DNA of 32,000 nt, taken from NCBI GenBank assembly GCA_030595715.1, contig JAUVCN010000003.1, forward strand, positions 1-32,000. The letters run 5' to 3'. A program made the position numbers and the translations under genes. The DNA comes from Thermoplasmatales archaeon. Its GTDB lineage: Archaea; Thermoplasmatota; Penumbrarchaeia; Penumbrarchaeales; Penumbrarchaeaceae. The notes below the pieces were generated by a model, which did no database searches, was not told where the DNA came from, and worked only from the letters and a program-made list of their open reading frames with translations. Positions 4,888 to 29,401 of the stretch are shown one piece after another (position 1 is the first letter of the stretch; each line of letters opens with the position of its first letter).

Positions 4888-7800
4888 TCACTCTTCAAGA
4901 CCATACTGTTCGACCTTTGGACCCGACCAGAAGATCACCCCGATCACTGCCAGAAGCAGTATTGCCACGATAATACCGAGTATCAGGTAAAGTGTTGTAT
5001 TCTCCTTCTGCCCCGCTTCTATCTCGAGATGGAAGGTCCTCTCTATCGTGGTATTACCCGAGACGATGGTTATCGTGATCCAGTGCTCACCGATATCCTG
5101 TCCCGATGGTTCGAACTCGATCTCACCCGTTTCGGGATCTATGTCGAAAAGATGTGTGTCATCACTGAATCGAGCCCCGGGGACCAGGTCCCCCTCGATA
5201 TTGATCTTGTAACTGAACTTGCTTCCGGTCCTGGCATCAGGAAGGTGTATCGATGGTTCGGAGAAATGCAATCTGCCACTTGGAGCCAATATCTCGAGCA
5301 TGAAGGAATAGGTAGCATTGCCTCCCTGATCATCCTCTATCGTGATCTGGACGAAGTGGGTTCCGACATCCTCCGAATACGGGACTATTCTGAGAGTACT
5401 GCCTGATATCTTGAGCCTCTCCAGCGTTGTGTTCATCGATACTTCGATAAGGTCCCCTTCCGCATCGGTCATTTGAAGGACGACGCTGAATGGAATGTCC
5501 ACGGAGGCCGTGTAATTATCCAGGATGCCAATGATCCTCGGTGGGTCGTTCACAGGCGATACGAATATACTTGCGGTCGTAATATCCTCGGACAGGCCAT
5601 CTGAAACACGTAAAGTGATATCGAAGGTTCCGGACCAATTGGAAGGAGGTTTTACCAGAAGATCGGAACCTACCAACATACACCATTCTGGAGCTCCGGT
5701 TGCCATGGAATATGTAAGGGTCTTTTCATCATCATCCGGGTCATATACATTCCGGGAAAGATCGAACACCCCCCCACCTGGAGCGTCCTCTTCCATCTCG
5801 AGCAGACCGATGGAGAGGAACCTGGGCCTGGCATTGACTTCCATTACAATGCTCCCTATGTTGTTCAGAAGATCGTTCTCGACCTGAGACGAAATAACAC
5901 CGACCGAGATCCGCTTCCAGGACCTCATGGGATCTACCATGACATCAAGTTCAACGGTATCTCCTTTGCTGATGGAAATGGTCGTCGAATGATATGGCAG
6001 GCTCCAATCATTGATGTCGTCCGGGGCATCACCCGGAATTACCATTGCGGTAACATTTTCAGCATCCCGCCCTCCTACATTCTTGATACTAAATGATAAG
6101 GTCGCAGTTGTCCCTTCCGTAAGAGGTAACGGTGATATTGACATGGAAGATCCATCCACTTCAAGGTCCATAGGTTCATCCAGAGCTGTTACATATGAGA
6201 TATGGGGGATGTAATTCTTCCCGGTCACCGATACCGTTACATTACCACCGGTGGAGAAAAAGGTGGGGACATCTGCGTAACCGTCAGGACCTGTCAATGC
6301 CGTGAACACCTCATCGGTATCTTCGAGGTACATTGTGACAAGCAGGCTCGGTATTGGTGATCCGATCGGATTGGTAGCACGAACCGTATGAATGTCGCCT
6401 CCGGCGTAAAGATCGCTCTCAGCGGTGGAAACCATCAACTCTTCAGGATCCCCGATCCATGCATGGATCGCTGGATCCCCAAGGAGGTTGTAGGTGTAGA
6501 GCTCTATCAATAGAACCTCCTTCGTTGCTATCTCGTCCCATTTGGAATCGATGTAATGCTGCTTCAGCCAGTACAGGCTATCTCCTGGCATATGGGTTCC
6601 GATCATGTTCTGCCAGAACTTCGATAGCAGATACCAGTTCCCGAGAGAGTAATCCACACCTTCTCCCCTCCAGGATACACCGGTGGATCCTATCAAACAT
6701 ATAGCTCCGCCGTTCGGCGCATACACCAGATTCTCCAGGCTCGTGTCTCCCGGAGATGAGAAATTTACCGAATCACAGGAGGATAGGTAGACGACCGGCA
6801 TCTTTCCTCCATTGGTAAGGTTCCAGTTATCCTCGTATGTCAAGGCTTCGGCGAAAGCCCCTCCTCCCGACATCAAACCATTCGGATCGATGTATTGGGC
6901 CAATGAGTATGCGATCGGAGGCGAATGCCCATAGTCGATATCATAATATGATTGGCCTGCAAATGTGAAGAATGAACATCCCTCATTCAATGCACCTGGT
7001 ATGTCTCCTACATTGAATCCATCCGTTGTGTTGGAATAAAGGCCGCCTTCATATTCAGTGTAATCATGGAACTCTGTGAGATCCAGGGCCCTTGGCAGAT
7101 ACCTTTTGGTGTAGTTTGCGAATGCCTTGTATGCATTGTCCTTGTAAGGATCGAATCCCTCATCCTCCGTGGTGTTCGGATCGTTCAAGACATTCGGTCT
7201 TTCCATGAGAGAGGTTGCTATAACTCCTTTTTTGGTCCAGTTGCCGGGTTCGGGGTCCGACTCATATTCAATGACATTTCGGACCATTCTCAATGCTTCT
7301 GTTGAGTTGCTTACCGGAAACCTTCCGACTTTCAATGGGAATGATAGATTCTCGACCCCGACGATCTCGATATCATCCCTCTCCCCATATCTGCCGTCAC
7401 CATCTGCGTCCCACTCGGTTTCCGGTGAAGAATAGTATACATCCGATAGATATGTGTCATCATATCCCCATCTGGAAGCATTCGCCCACAGATACCTGGT
7501 AGGAATTATCTCGGAGTCTCCACCCAGAAGAATATATTCCAGTGATCCTCCCGAAGATCCATATATCTCATTGATGGCTTCAAGAAGCTTTTCAGCATCA
7601 TCAGCACCGGATCTGCCTGAAAGTATGCTATCCTGACCGTCAATGGTGAATATCTCTGCTTTCAATCCAGTGGAGGACCTCCAGGTGGCCAGGTCCTCGA
7701 ATTCATCGGACAGACCTTCTGTGGTGATGATGGCATATTTCAACGACTGGGGGAGGACCTCCTTCAAGGACCTGGTCTCAACCTCTGACATACCAATGGA

Positions 7801-7926
7801 GTTTCCAGAAGATGTTAAAATTGGAATTTGAATCAGCAAGGAAATGATGATCAAGATCACGCCAAAGGTCCGAGATATGCTATTTTTCAAGGTTTCCACC
7901 TGCTCCATTCGAAGTGATGGTTCCAT
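4888..7926 (-). CDS. Peptidase C25 (gingipain)-like surface protein with Ig/cadherin-like repeats and C-terminal TM anchor
   Basis: 1012-aa ORF with a signal anchor (FGVILIIISLLIQIPILTS). C25-type motifs in order: YAIITTEGLSDEFEDLATWRSSTGLKAEI, YILLGGDSEIIPTRY, SDVYYS, KVGRFPV, MPVVYLSSCDSVNF (catalytic Cys context, codon 6775..6777). The C-terminal part has Ig/cadherin-like repeats (VSPVNDPPRI) and the TM helix LYLILGIIVAILLLAVIGVIF. Confidence 0.8.
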   Translation of the reverse strand: MEPSLRMEQVETLKNSISRTFGVILIIISLLIQIPILTSSGNSIGMSEVETRSLKEVLPQSLKYAIITTEGLSDEFEDLATWRSSTGLKAEIFTIDGQDSILSGRSGADDAEKLLEAINEIYGSSGGSLEYILLGGDSEIIPTRYLWANASRWGYDDTYLSDVYYSSPETEWDADGDGRYGERDDIEIVGVENLSFPLKVGRFPVSNSTEALRMVRNVIEYESDPEPGNWTKKGVIATSLMERPNVLNDPNTTEDEGFDPYKDNAYKAFANYTKRYLPRALDLTEFHDYTEYEGGLYSNTTDGFNVGDIPGALNEGCSFFTFAGQSYYDIDYGHSPPIAYSLAQYIDPNGLMSGGGAFAEALTYEDNWNLTNGGKMPVVYLSSCDSVNFSSPGDTSLENLVYAPNGGAICLIGSTGVSWRGEGVDYSLGNWYLLSKFWQNMIGTHMPGDSLYWLKQHYIDSKWDEIATKEVLLIELYTYNLLGDPAIHAWIGDPEELMVSTAESDLYAGGDIHTVRATNPIGSPIPSLLVTMYLEDTDEVFTALTGPDGYADVPTFFSTGGNVTVSVTGKNYIPHISYVTALDEPMDLEVDGSSMSISPLPLTEGTTATLSFSIKNVGGRDAENVTAMVIPGDAPDDINDWSLPYHSTTISISKGDTVELDVMVDPMRSWKRISVGVISSQVENDLLNNIGSIVMEVNARPRFLSIGLLEMEEDAPGGGVFDLSRNVYDPDDDEKTLTYSMATGAPEWCMLVGSDLLVKPPSNWSGTFDITLRVSDGLSEDITTASIFVSPVNDPPRIIGILDNYTASVDIPFSVVLQMTDAEGDLIEVSMNTTLERLKISGSTLRIVPYSEDVGTHFVQITIEDDQGGNATYSFMLEILAPSGRLHFSEPSIHLPDARTGSKFSYKINIEGDLVPGARFSDDTHLFDIDPETGEIEFEPSGQDIGEHWITITIVSGNTTIERTFHLEIEAGQKENTTLYLILGIIVAILLLAVIGVIFWSGPKVEQYGLEE

Positions 7927-8174: not shown

Positions 8175-8210
8175 CTGATATATCCCGCAGAAAAAAAAAG
8201 AGGCTACCAA

Positions 8211-12900: not shown

Positions 12901-14198
12901 ACCACGGGCAAACCATTGCCCCCCATGTGCTTTCCCGCAGCAGATACAATGAGCTCCTGTTCCGAATCTCCATCGATATCTGCGATCTCGAACATCCTAC
13001 CCAGTCTGTCTCCCGAATAATCAGGATCTCCCGACACTCTTCCGGTTGCTCCGTAGATGACCAGGTCCGCCCCTGCATTCGATTCCATGGTAGATGGAAA
13101 GGATTCCGGAATATCCCCATAGAACACATGAAGAGCTCCACAATCATACTCCATGTTCAATGGATCATCAGATCCTGGGGAGCCTGCAATAATATCGTCC
13201 TTCCCATCCTGATCAATATCGATCACCTGAATGGAAAATCCCAGGTAATCTCTCTCCGAACTTCCCCTGATCCAGCATCTTGCAGCATCTCTAGGATCAA
13301 TTGTCGATTCATTCTTGAGTGAAGATGCATTGAATATAAGAAAGACCGATCCGGTGAGGTCAATATCCCTCCCATCATCGTCCCAGTTGTTCGCTCCGAT
13401 GATCAGGTCCGTATTGCCATCACCGTCTATGTCACCGGTTTCGATGGCCGAGCCCAGCATCTTGAAATCGTTTTGTGTGATGGTGGTTTCTTCACCTGTA
13501 CCCCATTGAATATTCACACTGTGAGGGGGTGGACTCGGAATTATTGGATCATTGAAGAAATATCCGGATATCACCTCAACCAAACCGTCCTTATCCAGAT
13601 CCTCAATGATCAAATGGTCGTCATATTGGTAATTGTTCGGAAACTCGGGTCCGCCTCCCAGGAAACTCCGATAAGGGTTCAAGGAATCTCCATCTCTCAT
13701 GTAAATCCTTCCTGAACCTTTGTATCTGGCCATTGCCATGTCCAGGTCACCATCACCATCGATATCCCCCACATCGAATGATGTTGTACCGTATATCGGG
13801 TAAGAATGATCAGGATCTGCCGAAGATAGGTCGATCGATCCATTTATGTGGGATTCCCCTCCTGAGAATGCGATCATTCCCGCATTTCCGGGTAGAAGAC
13901 CGTAAGGAAACACAATGTCATCATATCCATCACCATTGATATCCTTCAGATCCAAAAGAGAGCCGAATCCCGACTGGTCCCCTCCGTTATAAATCCCTGT
14001 AAAACTAATATCTGCTACATCTTCAAGTATCTGGATCCCTGAATTCGAGGTTTCAGCATTTACCTCATACTCATTGATCGGAATGGGAATGTCAATTAAA
14101 GGCAGGGTCAAATGTAATACTAGCAGCAATGCGATACCAGTTATGATTACTGATTTCTTCGGAATGGGCCCCCCTCCGAATATTACATATCCATTCAA
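9996..14198 (-). CDS. Giant surface protein: FG-GAP/VCBS (integrin-alpha-like) repeats, PA14 domain, Ig/PKD-like repeats, C-terminal TM anchor
   Basis: 1400-aa ORF with a signal anchor (VIITGIALLLVLHLTL). There are at least 7 Ca-binding FG-GAP cores (DINGDGYDDIV, DIDGDGDLDMA, DLDKDGLVEVI, DIDGDGNTDLI, DIDQDGKDDII, DIDGDSEQELI, DVNGDGVYDLM; approx. 12640..14020). A PA14-like segment is GLFGTYWQRSDFKVIGEEMIDPCIDFNWNDG...FSIRWHGWI...LELDGQEI (approx. 11400..11700). A PKD-like unit is HKITLTVDDGIPGQNVS. The TM helix is WMVLLASLIGTLVVIVVLYMII, followed by an acidic tail. Confidence 0.85.
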   Translation of the reverse strand: MNGYVIFGGGPIPKKSVIITGIALLLVLHLTLPLIDIPIPINEYEVNAETSNSGIQILEDVADISFTGIYNGGDQSGFGSLLDLKDINGDGYDDIVFPYGLLPGNAGMIAFSGGESHINGSIDLSSADPDHSYPIYGTTSFDVGDIDGDGDLDMAMARYKGSGRIYMRDGDSLNPYRSFLGGGPEFPNNYQYDDHLIIEDLDKDGLVEVISGYFFNDPIIPSPPPHSVNIQWGTGEETTITQNDFKMLGSAIETGDIDGDGNTDLIIGANNWDDDGRDIDLTGSVFLIFNASSLKNESTIDPRDAARCWIRGSSERDYLGFSIQVIDIDQDGKDDIIAGSPGSDDPLNMEYDCGALHVFYGDIPESFPSTMESNAGADLVIYGATGRVSGDPDYSGDRLGRMFEIADIDGDSEQELIVSAAGKHMGGNGLPVVRSAGVVTVHETADAFPSNGKLVKLDYPSKVFTVEGTDPSDSTGWQLETGDVNGDGVYDLMISVPGGDGTDNFRPECGEVYVIMGQNLRVNDLILSGEGFHDGCILPGSGPLRMNLSYTHTKGWGEVKEVILSLDPDGSMINISIDPSSARIDGDDRGSIEVIDSFLGGTANIGWSMIDLNIGWDIPIKGPLDIIVELIDSEGNSITSVFNEISNVEKDVLLGSNWKIEGIDEEIRHRWDWCSGNADLMITNLNLVHLKYPEIKIQPGDIGIGVISSSGGSIDNIFSDDEDLFFDALDLETGEIILTPSLNESVFPPAYPAGFLPGFHGAEKIEIRVDKEKPLPPNDVTFKQGSLGSGNIISGEGTIIAINATISEDMDPEGSGVHSIEMEINEGGFHPVMAQGGLFGTYWQRSDFKVIGEEMIDPCIDFNWNDGFGPYDKNVPSNDFSIRWHGWIRNPWDYPISFKLTGKSIARLELDGQEIIPWTSIEGGPTSSELDLEPDTYHSIVVHYFFHEPTNPFPLSGIDLQWSDDGRFTTIDENHLFYPTNESIFDLDTSLERIEINARLVDWVGRSSDVINNFGRMDTEGPVFYPIQVPEWTTSLVPRVVVDIMDRATDLGVGAGVDPGSVHYRLIDRFGNIGDWTIPTDNVKLDNKVTTVCYPILHPDWKGDIQFEASDIIGNPSISNLFRLNVDIDGPEIEVMGGPDLFLPPDGPFMISARIKDMGGSGVDGDSVEIKIKEGNNDWSDWSDFGSGTDGHDIIVNGSLLLAEGSYYLQLRAFDIVGNIGTSMEHLISISIAIFDLPPVPFILSPENGSEFSMYSPILLDSTGTTYDPDENKELSITWWSNITGYIISGGKVITYLPVGHHKITLTVDDGIPGQNVSTSVSIIVFDPDDDGDGGGGSGRDPIPEDKDDDITWMVLLASLIGTLVVIVVLYMIIRSRKENELVIGLRDGPQDDTDDDWLD

Positions 14199-14516: not shown

Positions 14517-16238
14517 TTAGTTCTTCTTGCGATAGATGCCGTAACCACCGGTCCTCAATATCAAAGGAACATTTCTAACGGCTTCACGATCATATTCCCT
14601 GATCTGTTCTGAAAGGTCCTCCCATGGAACAAGGTATGGGCTTTCCAACCTATCTCGATCCTTCCCGAGGACCCAGCCATTGAGATATTTCTCGGCATTC
14701 CACCTGAAATGTTCCATTTTTGCAAGGAATTCCACCTCATCATCCTTGAATCTCTTCAGGGCTTTATTGGAGATGCCTTTTTTCTTGAATGCTCCGATCG
14801 CCCGGACCTTTACGCTGATATGATCGGCTTGCTGGCGGTTCGATTCCTTGAATATCTCCGGTAGACGTTCCCATGGATTGTGGCTAACTTTGTTATTGTC
14901 AAGGGTCTTCTCCTTGATCCTTGCCCTGATGAACTTTTCATGGATCCATTTGGCAACCCTGTCCATCTCCCCACCAATTATTACCGATTCCGTGCAGATC
15001 CTTTCCAATGTCTTGAAAACGTACAATCTGGCATTCCTCTCGGTATTTTCAAGCTCGGATTGCAGAATGGATGCAAAGTCAACCTTTTCATTGATACTGA
15101 TTATCACGGGAACCTTTTCCATGATCGCCCTGGTATTGAGATGATATCCTGTTGTAACGTTCTTGATATCATCCTCGAACGAGAGGAAGACCGTACTGGG
15201 AACCGATCTGAGAGAGGACTCCACCTTCCTCCAGTTGAACAATCCTGAATTATCCATATCGATCTCGATGAACTCCAACTCGATATTGTCAATATTCTTT
15301 ACCTCTGGGAACCTGTCATGGAAGATCGTTCCCTTCGTCTTCGCCTTTTCATCGATCACGGTGATCTGGAGCTTTCTTCCATCAGGGTAATGTCCAATTT
15401 TCAATGCCTGGATGACAACGCTCTCACCGAGGCTGTCAAAACCGAATACCAGAATATGACAGGGTTTGCCCTTCTCTTTCGGTAAATATGCATCCGGAGG
15501 GTGTTTTTCGAACAATCTCCTGGCGCTGTATTCGAAGATATTGAAATACTTTACAGATGATCCGCTTGTATCAAGTGATCTGTGGCAGCTCTTTTCGATC
15601 ATATCACAGAATTTCTTGTTGGATAGATGTATGTAACTTTTCACATTGCTTCTCCTTTTTGACGCTTTGACCACTTTATCACAATTGACCGCGATCTCGG
15701 TGTTGGTGATATCATTGTCAGAAACTCCCAGCAGATATTTTGCTTTGAGTACACCTGCTTTATACAGAGTTTCGGATTCGGTAGCATCTCCAATGATCAC
15801 ATAGATACCCTTGGCTTTGCAGGAATTGAGCAGAATATTGCCGGGATCCTTCTCTATTACAACGATCCTGTTCCTTTTCTTGAAATCCAGGGCCATGAGA
15901 TATCCTTTATGGCTCAAGCCGCAAATGATCACATGACCCTTCCAGGATCTGATCTTTATCAGGTTGATCTTCTCGCTGAAAACATTCATCAGGGTAACAA
16001 AGACGATGTACCATGTCATGAGGGGCAGGATGAACCTTGCTGCCTGGAGCTCCCATGGAATATCTCCATCTGTTTGAACATTGATGAGAAACAGCCTCAT
16101 AGTGTAATAGAATATATCAAAGACCGTTTTTGTTTCCGAATAAAGAATGTAATAGCCCCTAAAACCCAAAATGAAGCCAGCCATGGCGATCGAGAAGATC
16201 AGCAGCCATTTGTTCTCCTTTATCCACCTGAAGATCAT
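14517..16238 (-). CDS. Membrane protein: 2 TM helices + two TrkA-N/RCK-like Rossmann domains + two C-terminal RyR (ryanodine-receptor) repeats
   Basis: 573-aa ORF. TM1 is WLLIFSIAMAGFILGFRGYYIL and TM2 is AARFILPLMTWYIVFVTLMNVF. Rossmann 1 is HVIICGLSHKGYLMALDFKKRNRIVVIEKD. Rossmann 2 is HILVFGFDSLGESVVIQAL...ITVIDEK. The RyR-like repeats are at 14793..14969 (VAKWIHEKF...NPWERLPEIFKESNRQQADHI) and 14553..14741 (FLAKMEHFRWNAEKYLNGWVLGKDRDRLESPYLVPWEDLSEQIREYDREAVRNVPLIL). Confidence 0.85.
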   Translation of the reverse strand: MIFRWIKENKWLLIFSIAMAGFILGFRGYYILYSETKTVFDIFYYTMRLFLINVQTDGDIPWELQAARFILPLMTWYIVFVTLMNVFSEKINLIKIRSWKGHVIICGLSHKGYLMALDFKKRNRIVVIEKDPGNILLNSCKAKGIYVIIGDATESETLYKAGVLKAKYLLGVSDNDITNTEIAVNCDKVVKASKRRSNVKSYIHLSNKKFCDMIEKSCHRSLDTSGSSVKYFNIFEYSARRLFEKHPPDAYLPKEKGKPCHILVFGFDSLGESVVIQALKIGHYPDGRKLQITVIDEKAKTKGTIFHDRFPEVKNIDNIELEFIEIDMDNSGLFNWRKVESSLRSVPSTVFLSFEDDIKNVTTGYHLNTRAIMEKVPVIISINEKVDFASILQSELENTERNARLYVFKTLERICTESVIIGGEMDRVAKWIHEKFIRARIKEKTLDNNKVSHNPWERLPEIFKESNRQQADHISVKVRAIGAFKKKGISNKALKRFKDDEVEFLAKMEHFRWNAEKYLNGWVLGKDRDRLESPYLVPWEDLSEQIREYDREAVRNVPLILRTGGYGIYRKKN

Positions 16239-16261
16239 TGAAATACATCTCCATGGTTCAA

Positions 16262-19200
16262 TTACGGGGCTCCTTCATTCATCCTGGGTGGTTCCTGTGG
16301 CTGCGCTACGTTCTCGGCAGCAGGTAATTCAGGCAAAGTATCCTTGCCGGGTTCCTTCAGAGCTTCCGGAGGTTTTGAAGCATTTATACCTGGCCGATCG
16401 CCCCCATCAATTATCGCATCGGGGGCCAGCATGGTATCGATGGTCTTTGTCAGATTATCCAGATGGTCCGAGATGGGCTCATTGAACGCATCCAGCCAGT
16501 GGAGGGCACTGATATAATATTCCAGCTCCTCGGACGGCATAATATTTGATATTCTGAACAGGATGATCGGAATGTCCTTGTTCACAGCTCTCTCGATCTC
16601 CCTTAGAACCTGCTGGGATTCGTTGGATTCCGAGGAGAATACAAGGACCATCACTTTCGCGGAATTTATTGCCATGATGATAGATTTGGCCCAGGCCATT
16701 CCAGGGATCACATCTCTGGGGGCGATCCAGCATTTGTAACCGCCCTCCTCCAATTTATTGCAGATGGAATAGGCGGTATTCTGATCTGTATGCGCATAGC
16801 TGATGAACACATCTTTTGGACCTTCTACCGCTTTCTGTCCGATCAATCTTATGATCTTTCTCCTCTTGCGAATGATGAAAAATACCACCAATCCAATGAT
16901 CACTGCTATCACAATGGGCGTGGTCAGAAGGGTGATCAATAATGCCATGGTCCCCTCATCTTTTTTGGCCTTGGTTGGATCCGTTCCATCCAAATACTCC
17001 TGAAGATCGGTCTTTCCATCGCCATCCTCATCGTTGGTAGACGTGTTCAGCAACGGATCCAATCCATGGTCTATCTCCCAGACATCAGGCATCAGGTCGT
17101 CATCAGTATCGGGATCGTCCAATGCTGTTCCGTTCTCGTACTCTGCGATATTGGTCAATCCGTCATTATCAAGATCGTTCATTGCATCTTGTTGTTCGTA
17201 TATATTCAGACCATATTGGATCTCGACAAGATCGGGGATGCCATCTTCATCAATATCGTTTGTGGAAGATAATACGGTGATCGGGAATGTTGTCTGATCA
17301 AGATTCCCTTCCCCATCCGTAACGGTGACCGTCATTGTATATTCACCGGATTGATTTGTGTATCCCTCGATGACGGACCCATAATACGTGGTTGGAAGCC
17401 CACTCCACTTGATCTCCTGTATCCCAACGTTATCGGTAGCATTGATCTGGAAAGAGAATGGGACCCCTGAATATATCGTCACACCGTCCAATTCTCTGAT
17501 GGTCGGGAGGTCGTTATCGGTTATGGTAACGATGCGAACCGGTCCGGTTATCGTGTTTCCCGAGGAATCGATCAGTTCAATGTCGTAAGAGAAGGAGGCT
17601 ATGGAATGATCCAGAATGATCGACAGGCTCCAGGTCCCATCACCATCATCCAACAAGGGAATGTCCGTCCCATTCAATGAACCATGTGACCACGTAGCGG
17701 TCACCATCTCCAGATCGACCCTATCGGATGCTGTGATCTCGAAGATGAACTCATCACCGGTTGTTCCCGTTGAACTGCTGTCATCGGCTTCCAGGACCGG
17801 GTCATCATCATCAGATATCAAGATCATCCTCATTTGAGTAATACCCCAATTTCCCTGGATATCACTGGCATGAAAAATATATTTCAAAGGATCTGTAGAA
17901 TCATCTGGCAATGTGATATCAAGATAATATATTGAGGTTCCAGTCATGGATACATTAATGACATCTCCGTTTCCAAACCAGTATTCAACAAATACACCAC
18001 TCACACCGATGTTATCGGATACGGTGACATTGAAAAGATAGGTATCTCCAGTCGTTCCAAGGTCGGGGCTTCCATCAACGAATAATATCCTATCGTTATC
18101 ATGGATGGTCACGATGGCCTCATCTGTTTGGGCCCAATTGCCCTGAAGATCAGTTGCATGGAAGATGAAATGCAAAGGATCGGTGGAATCTGCTGGAAGG
18201 GATACTATGTCATAAGTATAGGGTCCATCTCCGGCCATTGTGACATTGATCCTTGAGCCTGATCCGAACCAATACTCGACAACGACTGTATTGATGCCGA
18301 TATTATCGAATGCAATTGCTGAAAATCTATAACTATCTCCGGTCGTACCATTTGAAGGTACGTTGCCTGTGAAGATGGGTCTGTCGTTATCTGTGATCGT
18401 GATCGTCTTTTCTGTTGTATATGCCCAGTTTCCCTTTTCATCAGAGAAATGAAAACTGTAATGAAGCCCATCGGTCGAATCGGACGGGATATCCAATTCA
18501 TATGAATATGGGCCGCTCCCTTCCATTGAAATATTGACAACCGATCTTGTTCCAAAGTGGTAATTTACGAAGACCGTATCAATGCCAATATTATCATTCA
18601 CACTGATGTTAAAAAGGAACGTATCGCCTGTTGTTCCTTCGGCATCACTTGTTTCCTCATCCCATGTGGGTTTATCATTGTCAGTGATCATTACAGACTT
18701 CTCGACCATCTGTGCCCAATTTCCTTGAGCATCAGTGGCATGGAAAATATAGTGTAGATCATCGGTTGAGTCTGCTGGTAAGGTAATATCAAGATAATAT
18801 ATTGAGGTTCCAATCATGGATACATTGTCGGCCTCTCCATTTCCATACCAGTATTCAACATATACCATCTCAACACCGATGTTATCATTCACACTGATAT
18901 TGAAAAGGAAAATATCGCCTGTTGTCCCCACAGTATCACTTGATTCAATACCCCAGGTCGGCCTATCATTATCAGTGATCAATACAGATCTTTCGACAGT
19001 AATGTCCCAGTTACCTTGAGCATCACTGGCATTGAAAAAATAGAAGATCGGATCGGTAGAATCTGCAGGAATATTTATTGTCTTCTCGAAATAAAGATTT
19101 CCAATTATGTTCGCTATATGGTGGGATCCAGTACCAAACCAATACTCAACATATACACTAGTTACCCCAATATTATCTGTCACGGTAACATTGAAAGTAT

Positions 19201-20803
19201 ACTGATTTCCAGTAGTACCAGTCGTTGGACTTTGATCAGTGAATGACGGAGCATCATTATCTGTTATGATGATAGTTTTCTCTTTCTCGGCCCAGTTGCC
19301 TGCAGAATCACGAGCGGAGTAAATGTAGTGGATCTTTGTAGCGTTTATTGGAATGAGTACTGAAGAGGTGTTGGTTCCAGACGATCCTATCATGGTTGAA
19401 TTAATATGATTGCCGAAATTGAACCAATACTCAACATATACTACCGGGACATCAATATTGTCGGTCACACTAATTGAGAAACTGAAGGTCTCTCCAGTTG
19501 TCCCAGAGGTATCGCTACCGTCAACACCAAACACCGGTTTATCATTGTCTGTTATTGTTATATCGGTCTGGGCCATGTTGGCCAAGTTGCTTGCAGAATC
19601 ACGGGCGGAGAAAATGTAGTGGATCACGGCAGCATCCGAAGGAACTGACACGGATGAGGTATACGGACCGCTTCCGGTCATTATAGAATTTGTATGAGGA
19701 CCATCCCCAAACCAATATTCTACAGATGCTACAGTCACGCCAATATTATCGGTCACTCCAATAGAGAAACTGAAGGTCTCACCGGTTGTCCCGGTTGTAT
19801 CACTGTCATCTGTCCCAAACACGGGTTTATCATTGTCTGTTATTGTTATATCGGTCTGGGCCATGTTGGCCCAGTTGCCTGAAGAATCACATGCGGAGAA
19901 AATATAGTGGATCACAGCAGCATCCGAAGGAACGGTCACTGAAGAGGTATTCGTTCCGGATGATCCCGCCATAGTTGAGTTTGTATGACTTCCCGTCCCG
20001 AACCAATACTCTACATACACACCAGGTGTATCGATATTATCGGTCACACCAATTGAGAAGTTGAAGGACTCACCAGTAGTGCCAGAGGTATCACTACCAT
20101 CAATCCAAAACACCGGTTTATCATTGTCTGTTATTGCTATATCGACCTGGGTCATGTTGGCCAAGTTACCAGCAGTATCATTTGCGTGGAATATGTAATG
20201 GATCACAGCAGCATCCGAAGGAACATTCACTGAAGAGGTATTCGTTCCAGATGATCCTGCCATAGTTGAGTTTGTATGACTTCCCGTCCCGAACCAATAC
20301 TCTACATACACACCAGGTGTATCGATATTATCGGTCACACCAATAGAGAAACTGAAGGTCTCACCAGTTGTCCCAGAGATATCGCTACCGTCAGTGCCGA
20401 AGATGGGTTCATCGTTGTCCGATACCACCCTGCTGTACCGGCCTGATTCTATTGTATTCGTTCCATCAGTTCCATTATAGGTCCAGTAAAGATAATCTGT
20501 ACTATCATCCGGGAAATCATTTGCTGAAATTGTATGTGTGAAGGTACCAGATGTATTGGACATGGTATTGATCGTTGTTGTTGACGATCCGATACCGAAC
20601 CAGTATGTGACATCAACTGTAATATCATCCTCTCCTCCTGAACTATCCACCTGAAAGGTGAATGGATCACCGGTAGTCGCAAAGGTTGTGGAGGATTCAT
20701 TGGAGAAAGTTGGAGCACCTTGGGCAAAGAATGTGAATAAAACCGTCATTGATGAAAGGACCAAGATCAAGCCAATTACCAAAAAAACTACTCTCTTGTA
20801 CAT
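16262..20803 (-). CDS. Giant receptor-like surface protein: 11 tandem ~97-aa repeats + Ig/PKD-like unit + thrombospondin-type-3-like repeats + TM helix + cytoplasmic TIR domain
   Basis: The ORF is open to 20959 (1565 aa). The likely start is the ATG at 20803, with a GGGTG SD-like motif 7-11 nt upstream and a signal anchor directly after it (MYKRVVFLVIGLILVLSSMTVLF). The TM helix is at 16871..16948 (MALLITLLTTPIVIAVIIGLVVFFII) followed by RKRRK. The TIR-like module is at about 16480..16813: DVFISYAHTDQNTAYSICNKLEEGGYKCWIAPRDVIPGMAWAKSIIMAINSAKVMVLVFSSESNESQQVLREIERAVNKDIPIILFRIS. Confidence 0.9.
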   Translation of the reverse strand: MYKRVVFLVIGLILVLSSMTVLFTFFAQGAPTFSNESSTTFATTGDPFTFQVDSSGGEDDITVDVTYWFGIGSSTTTINTMSNTSGTFTHTISANDFPDDSTDYLYWTYNGTDGTNTIESGRYSRVVSDNDEPIFGTDGSDISGTTGETFSFSIGVTDNIDTPGVYVEYWFGTGSHTNSTMAGSSGTNTSSVNVPSDAAVIHYIFHANDTAGNLANMTQVDIAITDNDKPVFWIDGSDTSGTTGESFNFSIGVTDNIDTPGVYVEYWFGTGSHTNSTMAGSSGTNTSSVTVPSDAAVIHYIFSACDSSGNWANMAQTDITITDNDKPVFGTDDSDTTGTTGETFSFSIGVTDNIGVTVASVEYWFGDGPHTNSIMTGSGPYTSSVSVPSDAAVIHYIFSARDSASNLANMAQTDITITDNDKPVFGVDGSDTSGTTGETFSFSISVTDNIDVPVVYVEYWFNFGNHINSTMIGSSGTNTSSVLIPINATKIHYIYSARDSAGNWAEKEKTIIITDNDAPSFTDQSPTTGTTGNQYTFNVTVTDNIGVTSVYVEYWFGTGSHHIANIIGNLYFEKTINIPADSTDPIFYFFNASDAQGNWDITVERSVLITDNDRPTWGIESSDTVGTTGDIFLFNISVNDNIGVEMVYVEYWYGNGEADNVSMIGTSIYYLDITLPADSTDDLHYIFHATDAQGNWAQMVEKSVMITDNDKPTWDEETSDAEGTTGDTFLFNISVNDNIGIDTVFVNYHFGTRSVVNISMEGSGPYSYELDIPSDSTDGLHYSFHFSDEKGNWAYTTEKTITITDNDRPIFTGNVPSNGTTGDSYRFSAIAFDNIGINTVVVEYWFGSGSRINVTMAGDGPYTYDIVSLPADSTDPLHFIFHATDLQGNWAQTDEAIVTIHDNDRILFVDGSPDLGTTGDTYLFNVTVSDNIGVSGVFVEYWFGNGDVINVSMTGTSIYYLDITLPDDSTDPLKYIFHASDIQGNWGITQMRMILISDDDDPVLEADDSSSTGTTGDEFIFEITASDRVDLEMVTATWSHGSLNGTDIPLLDDGDGTWSLSIILDHSIASFSYDIELIDSSGNTITGPVRIVTITDNDLPTIRELDGVTIYSGVPFSFQINATDNVGIQEIKWSGLPTTYYGSVIEGYTNQSGEYTMTVTVTDGEGNLDQTTFPITVLSSTNDIDEDGIPDLVEIQYGLNIYEQQDAMNDLDNDGLTNIAEYENGTALDDPDTDDDLMPDVWEIDHGLDPLLNTSTNDEDGDGKTDLQEYLDGTDPTKAKKDEGTMALLITLLTTPIVIAVIIGLVVFFIIRKRRKIIRLIGQKAVEGPKDVFISYAHTDQNTAYSICNKLEEGGYKCWIAPRDVIPGMAWAKSIIMAINSAKVMVLVFSSESNESQQVLREIERAVNKDIPIILFRISNIMPSEELEYYISALHWLDAFNEPISDHLDNLTKTIDTMLAPDAIIDGGDRPGINASKPPEALKEPGKDTLPELPAAENVAQPQEPPRMNEGAP
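17520..20715 (-). repeat. In-frame tandem coding repeats (period 288-291 bp, 11 units) inside the TIR-tailed surface protein gene
   Basis: Unit boundaries are marked by I-T-D-N-D-(K/R/A)-P. Conserved motifs are GTTG, (V/S)TDNIG(V/I), VEYWFG and GNWA. The string ATCATTGTCTGTTATTG recurs at 19541, 19829 and 20120. Units between about 19440 and 20420 are near-identical at the DNA level. A higher-order 870-bp (3-unit) similarity links about 17915 to about 18785. Confidence 0.85.
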
Positions 20804-21209
20804 TGAAACACCCACTTCAGACCTGAACCTTCTATAGGAACATATTTCGATACTCGGGACACAGTCGGTCGATCTGACCGATATTACCAAACAAAAAGGA
20901 TTCCGCATCCGTATCAGGAATCGCATTATCCTTTTCAAATAAAAGTAGGAATAGACCACTCAGGGGAGATGTATCTCTTCATACCTCTATTTGGAGATGG
21001 CCTTTCTTAATAGGATCAATTGATATATATTCTTAATCGAACACATTACTGGCTGTAACGGACCTGCCCGCCCATCGATCCACGATGGACAGATACCCTA
21101 TGGGATCGGATTCATTCGATAGATCTAAAAACAATATAGAAGGTGGTCACTGCTCCTGTGACTATCCCGCTCGCAAAAGCCAGGAATACATAGAAAACGA
21201 TAGGATCGC

Positions 21210-21431
21210 TCATCTACGTCCCACCGGGGAAAAATTGACCGGGTCTGCTCTTCTCATGTCAAGGTCCCCCTCATCATAATGATGTCTCAACAGTGAAGAA
21301 ATGATCGATCCGCCTTCACTCTCTTTCAATCTTCTTGAGCAACCAGGACACCTGTATACGGTTATCAGGCCCCTGAAGATGCTATCTTTGTGTGATTCTT
21401 CCATTCTTGTACCACATCGGTCACATCTCAT
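21210..21431 (-). CDS. Small zinc-ribbon protein (73 aa), hypothetical
   Basis: MRCDRCGTRM...YRCPGCSRRL has two CxxC pairs 22 residues apart. A GGAGG motif lies 8 nt upstream of the ATG. The gene is on the same strand as, and upstream of, the TIR-tailed gene. Confidence 0.5.
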   Translation of the reverse strand: MRCDRCGTRMEESHKDSIFRGLITVYRCPGCSRRLKESEGGSIISSLLRHHYDEGDLDMRRADPVNFSPVGRR

Positions 21432-21664
21432 AGAGTTTCCTCCGTGACATACTATTGAAAACGTATGGATTTATACTTGTCAGGGAGGTCCCGGGGGGTC
21501 ACCAATTCCATTGGATCTGATATATGGGGCGCATTTTTTGAGCCGACCGTCCAATTCTCAATAATGGACATCCGAATTATTGGATCATTTGTCCATGTTA
21601 TAGGGTCTGATCAGAGAATTGGATCAAGGCAAGAACTATGAAGAAACTATGTGATCGGTCATGG

Positions 21665-28598: not shown

Positions 28599-28961
28599 AT
28601 GACAAGCCCAAATAAAACCGACCCGGGGCTTGTATCCCTGATCATGGACCTAAAAACATGGTCGAGGGAGAACAAGGCCCCGATCTGGCGAGACATCGCG
28701 AAGCGCCTGGAAAAACCTTCCAGGGTATGGGCGGAGGTAAACATCTCCCGTATCACCTACCACGTGAAGAAGGGTGAAACGCTCATAATCCCCGGAAAGC
28801 TCCTTGGTGCTGGCGATATCGATTATCCAGTTACAGTGGCCACTTTCAAGGCCACCGATGGAGCGAGAACAAAGATCACCGAAGCCGGCGGAACCGTCAT
28901 TACCATTCCCGAACTGGTCAAGAAGCACCCGAAGGGGAATGGAGTAAGGATCATCGGGTGA
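28599..28961 (+). CDS. rpl18e: Ribosomal protein L18e
   Basis: 120 aa. The sequence TDPGLVSLIMDLKTWSRENKAPIWRDIAKRLEKPSR...ETLIIPGKLLGAGDIDYPVTVA..FKATDGARTKITEAGG is typical L18e. A GGAGGAG SD lies upstream. It is followed by rpl13 and rps9, as in archaeal operons. Confidence 0.9.
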   Translation: MTSPNKTDPGLVSLIMDLKTWSRENKAPIWRDIAKRLEKPSRVWAEVNISRITYHVKKGETLIIPGKLLGAGDIDYPVTVATFKATDGARTKITEAGGTVITIPELVKKHPKGNGVRIIG

Positions 28962-28966
28962 GATAA

Positions 28967-29389: not shown

Positions 29390-29401
29390 GGAGGTATGAG
29401 A

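What the first reader, a model, noticed from the sequence alone, without database searches (positions are those of the whole stretch)
16262..20803. Giant surface protein ending in a cytoplasmic TIR domain: Toll-like-receptor topology in an archaeon
Seen in sequence: a single ORF encodes these parts in order.
- A signal anchor.
- About 1,300 aa of predicted ectodomain: 11 tandem ~97-aa beta-rich units, a PKD/cadherin-like unit, and DxDxDG thrombospondin-type-3-like Ca-binding repeats.
- One TM helix (16871..16948) with an RKRRK stop-transfer.
- A ~110-aa tail (about 16480..16813): DVFISYAHTDQNTAYSICNKLEEGGYKCWIAPRDVIPGMAWAKSIIMAINSAKVMVLVFSSESNESQQVLREIERAVNKDIPIILFRIS.

The tail shows the TIR_2-type hallmarks. 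These are a (h)FISYxxxD first strand, W-I-x-x-R-D-h-x-x-G, a hydrophobic strand followed by S-x-x-S, and a Glu (in REIE) at the position of the catalytic glutamate of NAD-cleaving TIRs.

Established knowledge: bacterial and archaeal TIR domains are NAD+ glycohydrolases/cyclases. They act as sensors or effectors in antiviral systems such as Thoeris and as TIR-containing CBASS/Pycsar-type effectors. Those proteins are soluble or carry only small sensor domains.

Inference: attaching TIR to the cytoplasmic end of a huge, variable, glycosylated ectodomain gives an outside-in topology formally equivalent to animal TLRs. Ligand-, cell- or virus-driven clustering of ectodomains could oligomerise the TIR tails and switch on NAD+ cleavage. 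I know of no characterised prokaryotic example.
Basis: partly seen in the sequence, partly recalled or inferred. Interest (0 to 1): 0.85.

Follow-up and report, generated by a model that had tools for sequence, protein, structure and literature searches.

The report
Archaeal surface receptor with TIR tail
An archaeon encodes a giant cell-surface protein whose short intracellular tail is a TIR enzyme domain, the layout of animal Toll-like receptors, and the next gene encodes a channel-like protein with a RyR domain, a module recently shown to bind TIR-made cyclic ADP-ribose signals, which suggests an outside-to-inside signalling pathway not described in prokaryotes.

Summary
ORF 16262..20803(-) encodes 1,513 aa: a signal peptide, 11 tandem ~97-aa repeats, a PKD-like unit, DxDxDG repeats, one TM helix followed by RKRRK, then a TIR domain. 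The TIR scores 74.7 bits against Pfam TIR_2 (cut-off 28). Its AlphaFold model matches only TIR structures. Its family-invariant Glu (E1402) aligns with the catalytic E642 of SARM1.

The architecture is conserved in about ten archaeal-type proteins (those with a source name are from Thermoplasmatota). Two unrelated ectodomain types carry the same TM-TIR tail.

23 nt downstream lies a 573-aa protein with a 2-TM pore module, tandem RCK domains (GsuK-like) and a RyR/RY12 domain. The pair recurs in three of five archaeal loci. Among 80 distant homologues of that protein, TIR_2 is the commonest family in the next gene (10 of 60), and a further 5 of 46 second genes have it. None of 43 upstream genes does. 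Preprints from 2026 show phage RyR domains bind or cleave 2'/3'cADPR.

Best model (inferred, confidence about 0.5): an ectodomain event clusters the TIR tails, they convert NAD+ into a cADPR-type signal, and the RyR/RCK channel responds.

Caveats: two sampled bacterial relatives of this TIR lack a RyR partner, the window is not a defence island, and no activity has been tested. I rate it a new variant of TIR signalling, of high interest.

The parts
16262..20803 (-). Gene for the 1,513-aa ectodomain-TM-TIR protein (stop TAA at 16262-16264; alternative GTG start at 20815 gives the 1,517-aa version held in the public collection)
20717..20803 (-). Signal peptide, aa 1-29 (MYKR + hydrophobic core + AQG)
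   Evidence: hydropathy 2.83; K/R on the N side
17516..20716 (-). Eleven tandem ~97-aa beta-rich repeats (aa 30-1096; motifs GTTG...DNIG...VEYWFG...DND), distantly DUF4625-like
   Evidence: HMM finds 11 units; full units score 119-154 bits; the same repeat occurs in more than 100 giant proteins, all named ones from Thermoplasmatota
17264..17515 (-). PKD/Ig-like unit (aa 1097-1180)
   Evidence: weak DUF4625, PKD_4 and K319L-like_PKD matches at aa 1112-1177
16949..17263 (-). Membrane-proximal DxDxDG thrombospondin-type-3-like Ca-binding repeats (aa 1181-1285)
   Evidence: DIDEDG 1183, DLDNDG 1210, DPDTD 1230, DEDGDG 1258; throspo3_MtsD, weak
16871..16948 (-). Single transmembrane helix (aa 1286-1311, MALLITLLTTPIVIAVIIGLVVFFII)
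16856..16870 (-). RKRRK stop-transfer / positive-inside signal (aa 1312-1316)
   Evidence: 7 K/R in the C-flank, 3 in the N-flank
16427..16816 (-). Cytoplasmic TIR domain (aa 1330-1459), including the subfamily-specific C-terminal helix with the HWLDA motif
   Evidence: TIR_2 74.7 bits; AF2 block-mean pLDDT 82-97, mostly >=90, across tail residues 11-140; Foldseek: SPARTA TIR-APAZ, Hydra TRR-2, SARM1, RPV1/RUN1, AbTir, all probability 1.0
16598..16600 (-). Codon GAG for E1402, the putative catalytic glutamate (REIERA)
   Evidence: invariant in 101 family members; aligned to SARM1 E642 by hhalign at probability 91%
16265..16426 (-). Predicted disordered P/E-rich C-terminal extension (aa 1460-1513)
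   Evidence: block-mean pLDDT 57-70
16239..16261 (-). 23-nt intergenic spacer between the TIR gene and the partner gene, with a GGAG upstream of the partner ATG; consistent with co-transcription
14517..16238 (-). Partner gene: 573-aa protein with a 2-TM pore module, tandem RCK domains and a RyR (RY12) domain
   Evidence: TrkA_N 55 bits, RyR 41.6 bits; AF2 pLDDT 86.8, pTM 0.81; GsuK, TrkA, MthK, Slo1; adjacency conserved in L001 and L002
15981..16211 (-). Partner pore module: TM1 (aa 10-33), pore helix (39-51), loop, TM2 (62-86). The K+ filter TVGYG is replaced by the non-conserved NVQTDGD
14994..15941 (-). Partner tandem RCK/Rossmann domains (RCK1 aa 100-215, dinucleotide loop GLSHKG, GLGxKG in relatives; RCK2 aa 258-415)
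   Evidence: best structural match GsuK, which was crystallised with NAD+ and with ADP
14529..14969 (-). Partner RyR/RY12 module: two RyR half-repeats (aa 424-480 and 499-563). H510 and W513 are invariant in the family; D550 is present in this clade
   Evidence: roles of the ligand residues from PMC13232231 and 10.64898/2026.06.04.730250

Best explanation
The gene encodes a type I, single-pass surface protein of a Thermoplasmatota-type archaeon. About 1,250 aa of repetitive, probably glycosylated and Ca-binding ectodomain is joined through one TM helix and a ~20-aa linker to a cytoplasmic TIR domain of the NAD+-cleaving kind.

It most likely works together with the co-transcribed downstream gene. 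That gene encodes a tetrameric-channel-like protein (2-TM pore, two RCK domains, RyR/RY12 domain).

Proposed mechanism:
1. An extracellular event brings the tails together. Candidates are binding of a virus, another cell or a surface ligand, or disturbance of the envelope.
2. The TIR domains, held close under the membrane, self-associate. Self-association is what switches on TIR catalysis in characterised systems.
3. The TIRs convert NAD+ into an ADP-ribose-derived signal such as a cADPR isomer.
4. The signal is read by the RyR domain of the partner, and possibly by its Rossmann-type RCK domain. This gates a non-K+-selective pore and changes membrane potential or ion content.

What is shown: domain identities, topology signals, catalytic-residue conservation, conservation of the architecture, and the gene linkage.
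What is inferred: enzyme activity, the identity of the signal, the RyR domain acting as receptor, channel activity, and the trigger.
For: 1. TIR identity and fold: TIR_2 74.7 bits. The AF2 model has block-mean pLDDT 82-97 (mostly >=90) over the TIR core, and every top Foldseek match is a TIR domain.
2. Catalytic type: Glu1402 is invariant in 101 relatives and aligns to SARM1 E642. The nearest relatives include TIR + cNMP-binding fusions, the domain pair of Pycsar TIR effectors.
3. Topology: signal peptide; one TM helix; positive-inside charge in 10 of 10 proteins of this architecture; sequon enrichment (p about 0.01); acidic, K/R-poor ectodomain.
4. Selection on the architecture: about ten ecto-TM-TIR proteins exist (the named ones are from Thermoplasmatota). 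The TIR is 46-70% identical among them, the ectodomains only 22-50%. An unrelated ectodomain (Glug + He_PIG/cadherin-like Ig) carries the same TM-TIR tail in P0296 and P0298. Related ectodomains also occur fused to cytoplasmic Ser/Thr kinase domains in P0185 and P0194, so these tails are used for signalling modules.
5. Linkage to the partner: same strand, 23-nt gap. The pair is kept in L001 and L002 although the other neighbours differ and the TIR proteins are only 39-43% identical.
6. Linkage in distant homologues: among 80 metagenome loci of partner homologues (24-43% identical), TIR_2 is the top Pfam family in the +1 gene (10 of 60) and is present in 5 of 46 +2 genes. It is in 0 of 43 -1 genes (Fisher p = 0.004) and in 0 of 18 RCK-only loci. 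All ten TIR neighbours examined pass the TIR_2 cut-off and carry a Glu at the motif position by eye.
7. Same subfamily in bacteria: five of those ten neighbours are of the window's TIR subfamily, and four of the five have a TM helix after the TIR.
8. The RyR domain as a cADPR module: phage RyDEP (PF02026) cleaves 2'/3'cADPR using H75, W78, H100 and D117 (PMC13232231). Phage RyR Tad binds 3'cADPR at 43 nM, and also 2'cADPR and cADPR (10.64898/2026.06.04.730250). The RY12 domain of RyR1 is an adenine-nucleotide sensor, and prokaryotic RY12 'putative tetrameric cation channels' have been noted (PMC13642953).
9. Partner residues and fold: the partner keeps H510-x-x-W513 (invariant in 25 family members) and D550. 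Its C-terminal module matches phage Ryr-domain proteins at probability 1.0.
10. Partner body: GsuK-like (Foldseek E = 4e-10). GsuK was crystallised with NAD+ and with ADP.
11. Neighbourhood of partner homologues: other ADPR/nucleotide-signalling modules are present (SLOG/LSDAT, NUDIX, RelA_SpoT, STAND NTPases).
Against: - The linkage is asymmetric and incomplete. Two ecto-TM-TIR loci (L003, L105) have no RyR gene within 10 kb. Two bacterial TIR-TM relatives sampled on long contigs stand alone among housekeeping genes. The TIR may therefore act without a partner.
- The window is a surface-protein and housekeeping neighbourhood, not a defence island.
- Neither PADLOC nor the Thoeris catalogue lists an RCK-RyR effector.
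- The counterpart of RyDEP's phosphate-binding His (H100) is Ser533 in this clade.
- The pore loop is not conserved, so ion conduction is uncertain.
- The three archaeal pairs could partly reflect shared ancestry rather than selection.
- No activity, ligand or trigger has been measured.
Confidence: 0.5

Rival explanations
1. Stand-alone membrane-tethered NADase. The TIR tail is itself the effector. On activation it depletes NAD+ and arrests or kills the cell, as PycTIR, SPARTA, TIR-STING and TIR-SAVED do. The neighbouring RCK-RyR protein would then be functionally unrelated, or would only sense the resulting drop in NAD+ through its Rossmann-type RCK domain.
For: The closest relatives are bacterial TIR_2 proteins that include TIR + cNMP-binding fusions, the domain pair of Pycsar TIR effectors. 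Both sampled bacterial members of the subfamily, and two of five ecto-TM-TIR loci, lack a RyR partner. GsuK-type RCK domains bind NAD+ and ADP.
Against: TIR_2 is the most frequent +1 neighbour of distant RCK-RyR genes and is absent upstream. The pair is kept at a 23-130 nt spacing in three divergent archaeal loci. The partner carries a domain now known to bind TIR products (PMC13232231; 10.64898/2026.06.04.730250).
Confidence: 0.22
2. The partner is an off-switch or buffer, not the effector. Its RyR domain acts like phage RyDEP or RyR Tad, hydrolysing or sequestering the TIR-made signal to set a threshold. The real effector would be elsewhere, or the output would be NAD+ loss itself.
For: RyDEP's catalytic pair H75/D117 has counterparts H510/D550 in the partner (PMC13232231). 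Extra RyR-domain genes cluster beside RCK-RyR genes (8 of 60 +1 genes, 6 of 46 +2 genes), together with NUDIX genes.
Against: The RyR module is fused to a membrane pore and an RCK gating ring. That is the architecture of a ligand-gated channel and is unnecessary for a hydrolase or a sponge.
Confidence: 0.13
3. Tether-and-release model. Membrane anchoring keeps the TIR monomeric and inactive. Cleavage of the tail or shedding of the ectodomain, by a host or viral protease, frees the TIR to form active filaments.
For: In Dictyostelium TirC, a TM helix restrains a horizontally acquired bacterial-type TIR NADase, and removing the helix is toxic (PMC13142454). A C25 cysteine peptidase with surface domains lies in the same window at 4888..7926.
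Against: The linker is short (about 20 aa) and conserved in length across homologues, with no evident cleavage motif. The large, diversifying ectodomain is not explained by a simple tether.
Confidence: 0.08
4. Non-enzymatic scaffold. The TIR tail only mediates protein-protein contacts, as in animal TLR-MyD88 signalling, or anchors a surface adhesin or S-layer-associated protein to a cytoplasmic partner.
For: TIR domains in animal TLRs and IL-1Rs act as scaffolds. By sequence, the best PDB hits include Hydra TRR-2 and an oyster TIR-STING.
Against: The catalytic Glu and surrounding motif are invariant in the family. No second TIR (adaptor) gene occurs in the window or in the homologous loci. The nearest relatives are bacterial TIR_2 proteins, including fusions of the Pycsar TIR-effector type.
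Confidence: 0.07

Closest known systems
Animal Toll-like receptors and IL-1 receptors
   Same: Type I single-pass topology: signal peptide, large repetitive ectodomain, one TM helix, a short juxtamembrane linker and a C-terminal cytoplasmic TIR. Activation by bringing tails together is the natural reading.
   Different: The ectodomain is not LRR; it is ~97-aa beta repeats, a PKD-like unit and TSP3-like repeats. The TIR belongs to a bacterial/archaeal TIR_2 subfamily with the catalytic Glu. It is not in the TLR clade, which signals through adaptor scaffolds. No adaptor TIR gene is present. The similarity is convergent in architecture, not orthology.
Thoeris anti-phage systems (ThsB TIR + effector), including the recently proposed membrane and 'ion channel' effector types V-X (10.64898/2025.12.03.692087)
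   Same: A two-gene logic in which a TIR protein sits next to a protein that carries a domain able to bind NAD-derived signals. Membrane-perturbing effectors are common. Type VII responds to canonical cADPR and type X uses an ion-channel effector.
   Different: Here the TIR is the tail of a giant extracellular protein rather than a soluble ThsB. It is of a different TIR subfamily (FISY...CWIAPRD...HWLDA). The effector candidate is an RCK-RyR channel that is absent from PADLOC and not named in that catalogue. The locus is not a defence island. Whether the type X effector contains a RyR domain could not be checked.
Phage RyR-domain proteins RyDEP and RyR Tad (anti-Thoeris)
   Same: Same Pfam family (PF02026) and fold as the partner's C-terminal module. 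The H-x-x-W and Asp ligand-contacting residues are conserved.
   Different: The phage proteins are small soluble dimers that destroy or sequester 2'/3'cADPR. Here the module is a tandem repeat fused to a membrane pore and RCK ring in a cellular genome, and it sits next to a TIR gene.
GsuK, MthK and Kch: RCK-gated 2-TM K+ channels
   Same: TM1, pore helix, loop and TM2 followed by RCK domains. GsuK has tandem RCKs and binds NAD+ and ADP.
   Different: The TVGYG selectivity filter is absent and the pore loop is variable. There is an additional C-terminal RyR domain. The genetic link to TIR has not been reported for these channels.
Animal ryanodine receptors and the cADPR-RyR axis
   Same: A RY12-type domain sits on a cation channel. 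A TIR enzyme (SARM1 in animals) can make cADPR, which has long been linked to RyR activation.
   Different: RyRs are ~5,000-aa six-TM channels. Direct cADPR binding to RY12 is not established. Here the channel body is a small RCK-gated 2-TM protein.
Pycsar PycTIR and other sensor-fused TIR NADases (TIR-SAVED, TIR-STING, SPARTA)
   Same: Closest TIR sequence relatives (about 50% identity) and the conserved catalytic Glu. Oligomerisation-dependent NADase activity is expected.
   Different: Those proteins have cytoplasmic nucleotide- or nucleic-acid-sensing domains. Here the attached 'sensor' is extracellular, across a membrane.

Membership tests
TIR domain superfamily (Pfam TIR_2, PF13676) | Profile match above the curated gathering score | tested here: met
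   74.7 bits against a cut-off of 28, E = 1.2e-20, aa 1332-1442; also PF01582 at 31.2 bits against 21.3
TIR domain superfamily (Pfam TIR_2, PF13676) | Flavodoxin-like alternating beta/alpha TIR fold | tested here: met
   The AF2 model has strand-helix alternation betaA-betaE with block-mean pLDDT 82-97 (mostly >=90). All 50 listed Foldseek PDB hits are TIR domains at probability 1.0
NAD+-cleaving (enzymatic) TIRs | Catalytic glutamate in the helix after betaC | tested here: met
   E1402 is invariant in 101 relatives.
NAD+-cleaving (enzymatic) TIRs | NADase or ADPR-cyclase activity on oligomerisation | not testable with these tools
   Needs a biochemical assay of the tail
Toll-like receptor / IL-1R family | Type I topology with an extracellular N-terminal domain, a single TM helix and a cytoplasmic C-terminal TIR | tested here: met
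   Signal peptide, one TM helix and positive-inside charge in 10 of 10 proteins of this architecture. This is a prediction only; no dedicated topology predictor was available
Toll-like receptor / IL-1R family | LRR (TLR) or Ig (IL-1R) ectodomain | tested here: not met
   No LRR or Ig-family hit in Pfam; the ectodomain gives DUF4625-like/PKD-like and TSP3-like signals instead
Toll-like receptor / IL-1R family | TIR belongs to the metazoan receptor/adaptor clades and signals through TIR adaptors | tested here: not met
   The nearest relatives are bacterial TIR_2 proteins at about 50% identity. PDB sequence hits to metazoan TIRs are weak (22-26 bits). No second TIR gene is in the window or the homologous loci
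Thoeris-type TIR signalling systems | TIR gene adjacent to an effector gene that carries a signal-binding domain | tested here: met
   The TIR gene and the RyR-domain gene are adjacent in the window, L001 and L002. TIR_2 is found in 10 of 60 +1 and 5 of 46 +2 neighbours of distant RCK-RyR genes
Thoeris-type TIR signalling systems | ThsB-type TIR, or an effector matching a catalogued Thoeris component | tested here: inconclusive
   ThsB_TIR scores 20.8 bits for the full protein and 25.5 bits for the tail, around the cut-off of 21.2. NCBIfam ThcB4 scores 20-25 bits against a cut-off of 220. The partner has no PADLOC hit. No RyR or TrkA term appears in the Thoeris catalogue preprint. The type X 'ion channel' effector sequence could not be retrieved
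Thoeris-type TIR signalling systems | Location in a defence island and an anti-virus phenotype | tested here: not met
   The window neighbours are surface proteins, a dehydrogenase, a histidine kinase and ribosomal proteins. The phenotype itself cannot be tested here
RyR / RY12 domain (PF02026), for the partner | Profile match above the cut-off, and the adenine/ADPR-contacting residues H-x-x-W, His and Asp | tested here: met
   RyR scores 41.6 bits against a cut-off of 27.4, and PDB RyR repeats match. H510 and W513 are invariant in the family and D550 is present, but the second His is Ser533 in this clade. The module matches phage Ryr-domain structures at probability 1.0
RCK-gated 2-TM K+ channels (GsuK/MthK/Kch), for the partner | 2-TM pore with pore helix, plus an RCK gating domain | tested here: met
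   AF2 helices at aa 10-33, 39-51 and 62-86, followed by two Rossmann domains. Foldseek finds GsuK at E = 4e-10, and also MthK, Slo1 and TrkA. TrkA_N scores 55 bits
RCK-gated 2-TM K+ channels (GsuK/MthK/Kch), for the partner | T-V-G-Y-G K+ selectivity filter | tested here: not met
   The loop reads LINVQTDGD and is not conserved among 25 family members. No Pfam ion-channel family was reported for the protein

The most novel reading that the evidence does not exclude
This is the sensor arm of a previously unrecognised outside-in signalling pathway in prokaryotes. A surface receptor's cytoplasmic TIR makes a cyclic ADP-ribose-type second messenger, and that messenger opens a RyR-domain (RY12) cation channel encoded next door. 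If so, the animal 'TIR/cADPR to ryanodine receptor' connection and the TLR-style receptor topology both have counterparts, and possibly roots, in archaeal and bacterial two-gene modules. It would also explain why phages carry RyR-domain decoys: they mimic the host's own receptor for the signal.
Probability: 0.3. Interest if true: 0.92.

Novelty: new variant of a known kind. Interest (0 to 1): 0.78.

Why it matters
All characterised prokaryotic TIR systems sense events inside the cell. A TIR placed at the inner end of a giant surface protein would be the first case in which a prokaryotic TIR is positioned to report an extracellular event, such as virus adsorption, cell contact or envelope damage, using the layout of animal TLRs.

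The statistical link between TIR genes and RCK-RyR channel genes gives cellular RyR-domain proteins a candidate function as receptors for TIR-made ADPR signals. It appears within months of the first demonstrations that phage RyR domains bind and cleave 2'/3'cADPR.

It also makes an old question testable with small, expressible proteins: does cADPR act directly on the RY12 domain of ryanodine receptors? And it would add a new effector class, and an archaeal example, to TIR-based signalling.

Tried and rejected
- Exact-match look-ups of the window proteins found no contig. The window's own contig is not retrievable, so its organism is inferred from homologues and the ribosomal-protein cluster.
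- The genome-contig scan with the full protein found nothing. With the partner alignment it recovered only the two known Thermoplasmatota MAGs plus RCK-only bacterial loci, which I used as a negative control.
- The first metagenome scan with the 3-sequence partner alignment found nothing. The 25-sequence alignment worked.
- Sequence and profile searches of the PDB did not reach NADase TIRs. BLASTP against SARM1 mis-aligned the Glu region because of a loop insertion. hhalign resolved it.
- I tried to learn whether the type X Thoeris 'ion channel' effector has a RyR domain. Plasmid homologues of its ThsB were all type II (macro-domain) systems, so the question stays open.
- PHROGs gave only marginal hits for the RyR module.
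- The TIR-side reciprocal test (P0056, P0082) found no RyR neighbour. I therefore rejected the idea that this TIR subfamily is obligately paired with RyR channels.
- I rejected homology with the TLR clade, and rejected calling the partner a K+ channel (no TVGYG filter).
- No dedicated topology or signal-peptide predictor was available. Topology rests on hydropathy, charge bias and sequon distribution.

Full report

Yes. The minus-strand ORF 16262..20959 is open. A public NCBI-sourced copy of the protein uses a GTG four codons upstream (P0121, 1,517 aa, 100% identical).

A hydropathy scan finds exactly two strongly hydrophobic segments:
- an N-terminal signal sequence (MYKR, hydrophobic core, AQG);
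- a 26-residue segment at aa 1286-1311 (nt 16871..16948), followed by RKRRK.

An HMM built from the repeat units detects eleven tandem units of 96-97 aa between aa 30 and 1096. Eight full units compared pairwise are 43-84% identical. After the repeats come a PKD-like unit and three DxDxDG motifs plus one DxDxD motif.

The tail matches Pfam TIR_2 at 74.7 bits (cut-off 28; E = 1.2e-20) and Pfam TIR at 31.2 bits.

The window is archaeal. It carries an L18e-L13-S9 ribosomal-protein cluster. Every homologue of the giant protein that carries a source name is from Thermoplasmatota.

**2. The TIR domain**

An AlphaFold2 model of aa 1320-1513, built with a 101-sequence alignment, is confident across tail residues 11-140 (block-mean pLDDT 82-97, mostly >=90). 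It shows the alternating strand/helix TIR pattern.

Foldseek against the PDB returns only TIR domains at probability 1.0. They include SPARTA TIR-APAZ, Hydra TRR-2, SARM1, plant RPV1/RUN1/RPP1, MyD88, TLR1 and AbTir.

The family alignment shows a tight signature: FISY..D, CWIAPRD, SS.xN.S, REVERA and a C-terminal HWLDA helix. The Glu of REIERA is invariant in all 101 sequences. hhalign places it on SARM1's catalytic E642, aligning KEIVTAL with REIERAV at probability 91%.

The closest relatives, about 50% identical, are short bacterial proteins with the TIR at the extreme N-terminus. Some are fused to cNMP-binding domains, the domain pair of Pycsar TIR effectors. This is therefore a catalytic-type prokaryotic TIR, not a member of the animal receptor clade.

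**3. Topology and conservation of the architecture**

An exhaustive search of 1.8 billion representative proteins finds 24,475 relatives of the tail. Among the best 150, only a handful match through the TM segment with the TIR at the C-terminal end (P0121, P0125, P0273, P0282, P0296, P0298, P0310). Adding P0126, P0167 and P0173 from the full-length search gives about ten proteins with the ecto-TM-TIR order.

In all ten:
- the flank after the TM helix is K/R-rich (3-7 K/R) and the flank before it is not (0-4);
- the TM-to-TIR linker is 19-32 aa in nine of them, and 86 aa in P0173;
- the TIR is 46-70% identical to the window's, while the ectodomains are only 22-50% identical.

P0296 and P0298 carry an unrelated ectodomain (Glug plus He_PIG/cadherin-like Ig repeats) on the same TM-TIR tail.

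More than 100 giant proteins share the 97-aa repeat, and all of those with a source name are from Thermoplasmatota. They normally end in a TM anchor with a short or acidic tail. Two of them, P0185 and P0194, instead carry a cytoplasmic Ser/Thr kinase domain after the TM helix.

So in this lineage, signalling domains have repeatedly been added to the inner end of surface proteins. The tail is the conserved, selected part. NxS/T sequons are moderately enriched in the ectodomain (28 observed, 18.7 +/- 3.8 in shuffles).

Membrane anchoring is common in this TIR subfamily. 54 of the 120 closest relatives (45%) have TM helices after the N-terminal TIR, giving a type II order with a cytoplasmic TIR.

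**4.

The TIR gene's stop codon is followed by 23 nt containing a GGAG, and then the ATG of a 573-aa protein at 14517..16238. Pfam finds TrkA_N (55 bits) and RyR (41.6 bits, cut-off 27.4) in it.

Its AlphaFold2 model (pLDDT 86.8, pTM 0.81) shows:
- TM1 at aa 10-33;
- a short pore-type helix at aa 39-51, then a loop;
- TM2 at aa 62-86;
- two Rossmann/RCK domains;
- two RyR half-repeats at the C-terminus.

The best PDB matches are GsuK, TrkA rings, MthK and Slo1. GsuK is a 2-TM K+ channel with tandem RCK domains that was crystallised with NAD+ and with ADP. The best viral matches are a phage K+-channel-domain protein and several phage 'Ryr domain-containing' proteins at probability 1.0.

The K+ filter TVGYG is absent and the pore loop is not conserved among 25 family members. 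If the protein conducts ions, it is not K+-selective.

**5. Is the pairing meaningful?**

The same gene follows the TIR gene in both Thermoplasmatota loci that hold the closest homologues. These are L001 (GCA_049472195.1) and L002 (GCA_049472215.1). The TIR proteins there are only 39-43% identical to the window's, and the other neighbours differ.

I then fetched 80 metagenome loci that encode distant homologues of the partner (24-43% identical) and scanned their neighbours against Pfam:

| Neighbour position | Genes scanned | With TIR_2 | Other notable families |
|---|---|---|---|
| +1 (downstream) | 60 | 10 (most frequent family) | RyR (8), AAA_16, TPR, WD40 |
| +2 (downstream) | 46 | 5 | RyR (6), SLOG/LSDAT (4), RelA_SpoT (4), AAA_16 (4), NACHT (2), NUDIX (1) |
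| -1 (upstream) | 43 | 0 | PfkB (3), NUDIX (2) |

None of 18 RCK-only bacterial loci has a TIR. Fisher's test of downstream against upstream gives p = 0.004. Against any plausible genome-wide TIR frequency the excess is overwhelming.

The ten TIR neighbours I examined all pass the TIR_2 cut-off. They have an N-terminal TIR and a variable C-terminal module: TPR, zinc ribbon, caspase + CsgG-like, FHA or beta-propeller. All carry a Glu at the motif position by eye. Five of them (L052, L043, L045, L064, L086) belong to the window's TIR subfamily, and four of those five have a TM helix after the TIR.

The link is not reciprocal:
- two ecto-TM-TIR loci (L003, L105) lack a RyR gene within 10 kb;
- two bacterial TIR-TM relatives on long contigs stand alone.

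**6. Why the RyR domain matters**

[quoted passage not shown] The ligand contacts are H75, W78, H100 and D117, which are conserved across the family (PMC13232231).
- A June 2026 preprint shows that phage 'RyR Tad' binds 3'cADPR at 43 nM, and also 2'cADPR and cADPR, through H129/W132 and neighbouring residues (10.64898/2026.06.04.730250).
- A September 2026 paper identifies the RY12 domain of RyR1 as an adenine-nucleotide sensor. It notes prokaryotic RY12 homologues in 'putative tetrameric cation channels' of unknown role (PMC13642953).

The partner keeps H510-x-x-W513, which is invariant in 25 members, and D550. The second His is Ser533 in this clade.

None of these papers, nor the 2025 Thoeris catalogue preprint, links cellular RyR-domain channels to TIR genes. 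PADLOC has no model that matches the partner.

**7. Most likely mechanism**

Shown:
- a type I surface protein with a catalytic-type cytoplasmic TIR held about 20 residues from the membrane;
- a co-oriented, closely spaced gene for an RCK/RyR channel-like protein;
- recurrent TIR-RyR gene linkage across distant lineages.

Inferred:
- clustering or rearrangement of ectodomains drives TIR self-association, which is the established activation principle of TIR NADases;
- the TIR converts NAD+ to an ADPR-derived messenger;
- the RyR and/or Rossmann-RCK domains of the partner read the messenger, or the fall in NAD+, and gate a non-selective pore.

The biological output could be abortive defence against viruses adsorbing to the surface, contact-dependent signalling, or envelope-stress signalling. 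Nothing in the window decides between these. I put about 0.5 on the coupled model as a whole. I put about 0.9 on 'type I membrane protein with a cytoplasmic enzymatic-type TIR'.

The rival explanations are:
- a stand-alone NAD+-depleting tail;
- a partner that acts as a RyDEP-like signal terminator;
- a tether-and-release mechanism, as proposed for Dictyostelium TirC (PMC13142454);
- a purely scaffolding TIR.

**8. Comparison with known systems, and novelty**

It works like a TLR in topology, but it fails membership on ectodomain type and on TIR clade. It works like a Thoeris system in gene logic. However, the sensor is extracellular, the TIR subfamily differs, the candidate effector is uncatalogued, and the locus is not a defence island.

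The partner resembles GsuK without a K+ filter and with a RyR domain added. I could not determine whether the 'ion channel' effector of type X Thoeris shares the RyR module.

I rate the finding a new variant of a known kind, TIR-based signalling. It has two unreported features: a prokaryotic ectodomain-TM-TIR receptor architecture, and a TIR / RCK-RyR channel gene pair.

**9. Verdict**

It is extended by the partner gene. Interest is 0.78.

Noticed in passing
P0185 (1,404 aa) and P0194 (2,035 aa), homologues of the window ectodomain: Thermoplasmatota-type giant surface proteins with the same ~97-aa repeat carry a cytoplasmic Ser/Thr protein-kinase domain after their single TM helix (TM 1034-1052 then Pkinase 1135-1388; TM ~1690-1708 then Pkinase 1732-1980). 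This is a receptor-kinase-like architecture in archaea.
   Followed up: partly
window 1783-4830(-), 4888-7926(-), 9996-14198(-), 25022-26086(+): The TIR gene sits in a cluster of very large predicted surface proteins: CarboxypepD_reg + PKD (1,015 aa), Peptidase_C25 + Ig/cadherin-like (1,012 aa), FG-GAP (1,400 aa) and a PKD protein. It is a surface-protein island rather than a defence island.
   Followed up: partly
L025-L104 (loci of RCK-RyR homologues), +1, +2 and -1 genes: Besides TIR, the neighbours of RCK-RyR genes are enriched in additional RyR-domain proteins (8 of 60 and 6 of 46), prokaryotic SLOG/LSDAT (4), RelA_SpoT (4), NUDIX (3 in all) and STAND-type NTPases with TPR or WD40 (AAA_16, NACHT). 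This looks like a nucleotide-signalling or conflict-system neighbourhood that has not been described for RyR-domain channels.
   Followed up: partly
L064:4017-6485(-): An 823-aa protein combines an N-terminal TIR of the same subfamily, a TM helix, a caspase (Peptidase_C14) domain and a CsgG-like region. It lies two genes from an RCK-RyR gene.
   Followed up: no
P0269, P0270, P0271, P0274: Some of the best-scoring relatives of the tail contain 4-5 tandem TIR domains in one 620-880-aa polypeptide.
   Followed up: no
L001:7163-10278: In one Thermoplasmatota locus the TIR / RCK-RyR pair is followed by two TrkH K+-transporter genes. This hints that the RCK-RyR protein might also interact with Trk-type transporters.
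   Followed up: no
P0137 and P0186: Other members of the giant repeat-protein family have ~300-aa cytoplasmic tails that begin RKRRLYRRYRTRLSEIEDPEELKELYKSEV. Pfam found no domain in the P0137 tail, so this may be another uncharacterised intracellular module on a surface protein.
   Followed up: no
window 20960-21664: About 700 nt upstream of the giant gene has no ORF of 120 aa or more on either strand. It presumably holds the promoter and regulatory region; it was not analysed.
   Followed up: no
window 8100-8175(+) and 28599-29803(+): A tRNA-Arg(TCT) gene and an L18e-L13-S9 ribosomal-protein cluster. The cluster is useful as evidence that the contig is archaeal.
   Followed up: yes
L003:14210-15592(+): In the more distant ecto-TM-TIR locus (P0167), the downstream gene encodes a 460-aa single-TM protein with an N-terminal zinc-ribbon-like CPxC motif pair and no Pfam match. 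It could be an alternative partner.
   Followed up: no
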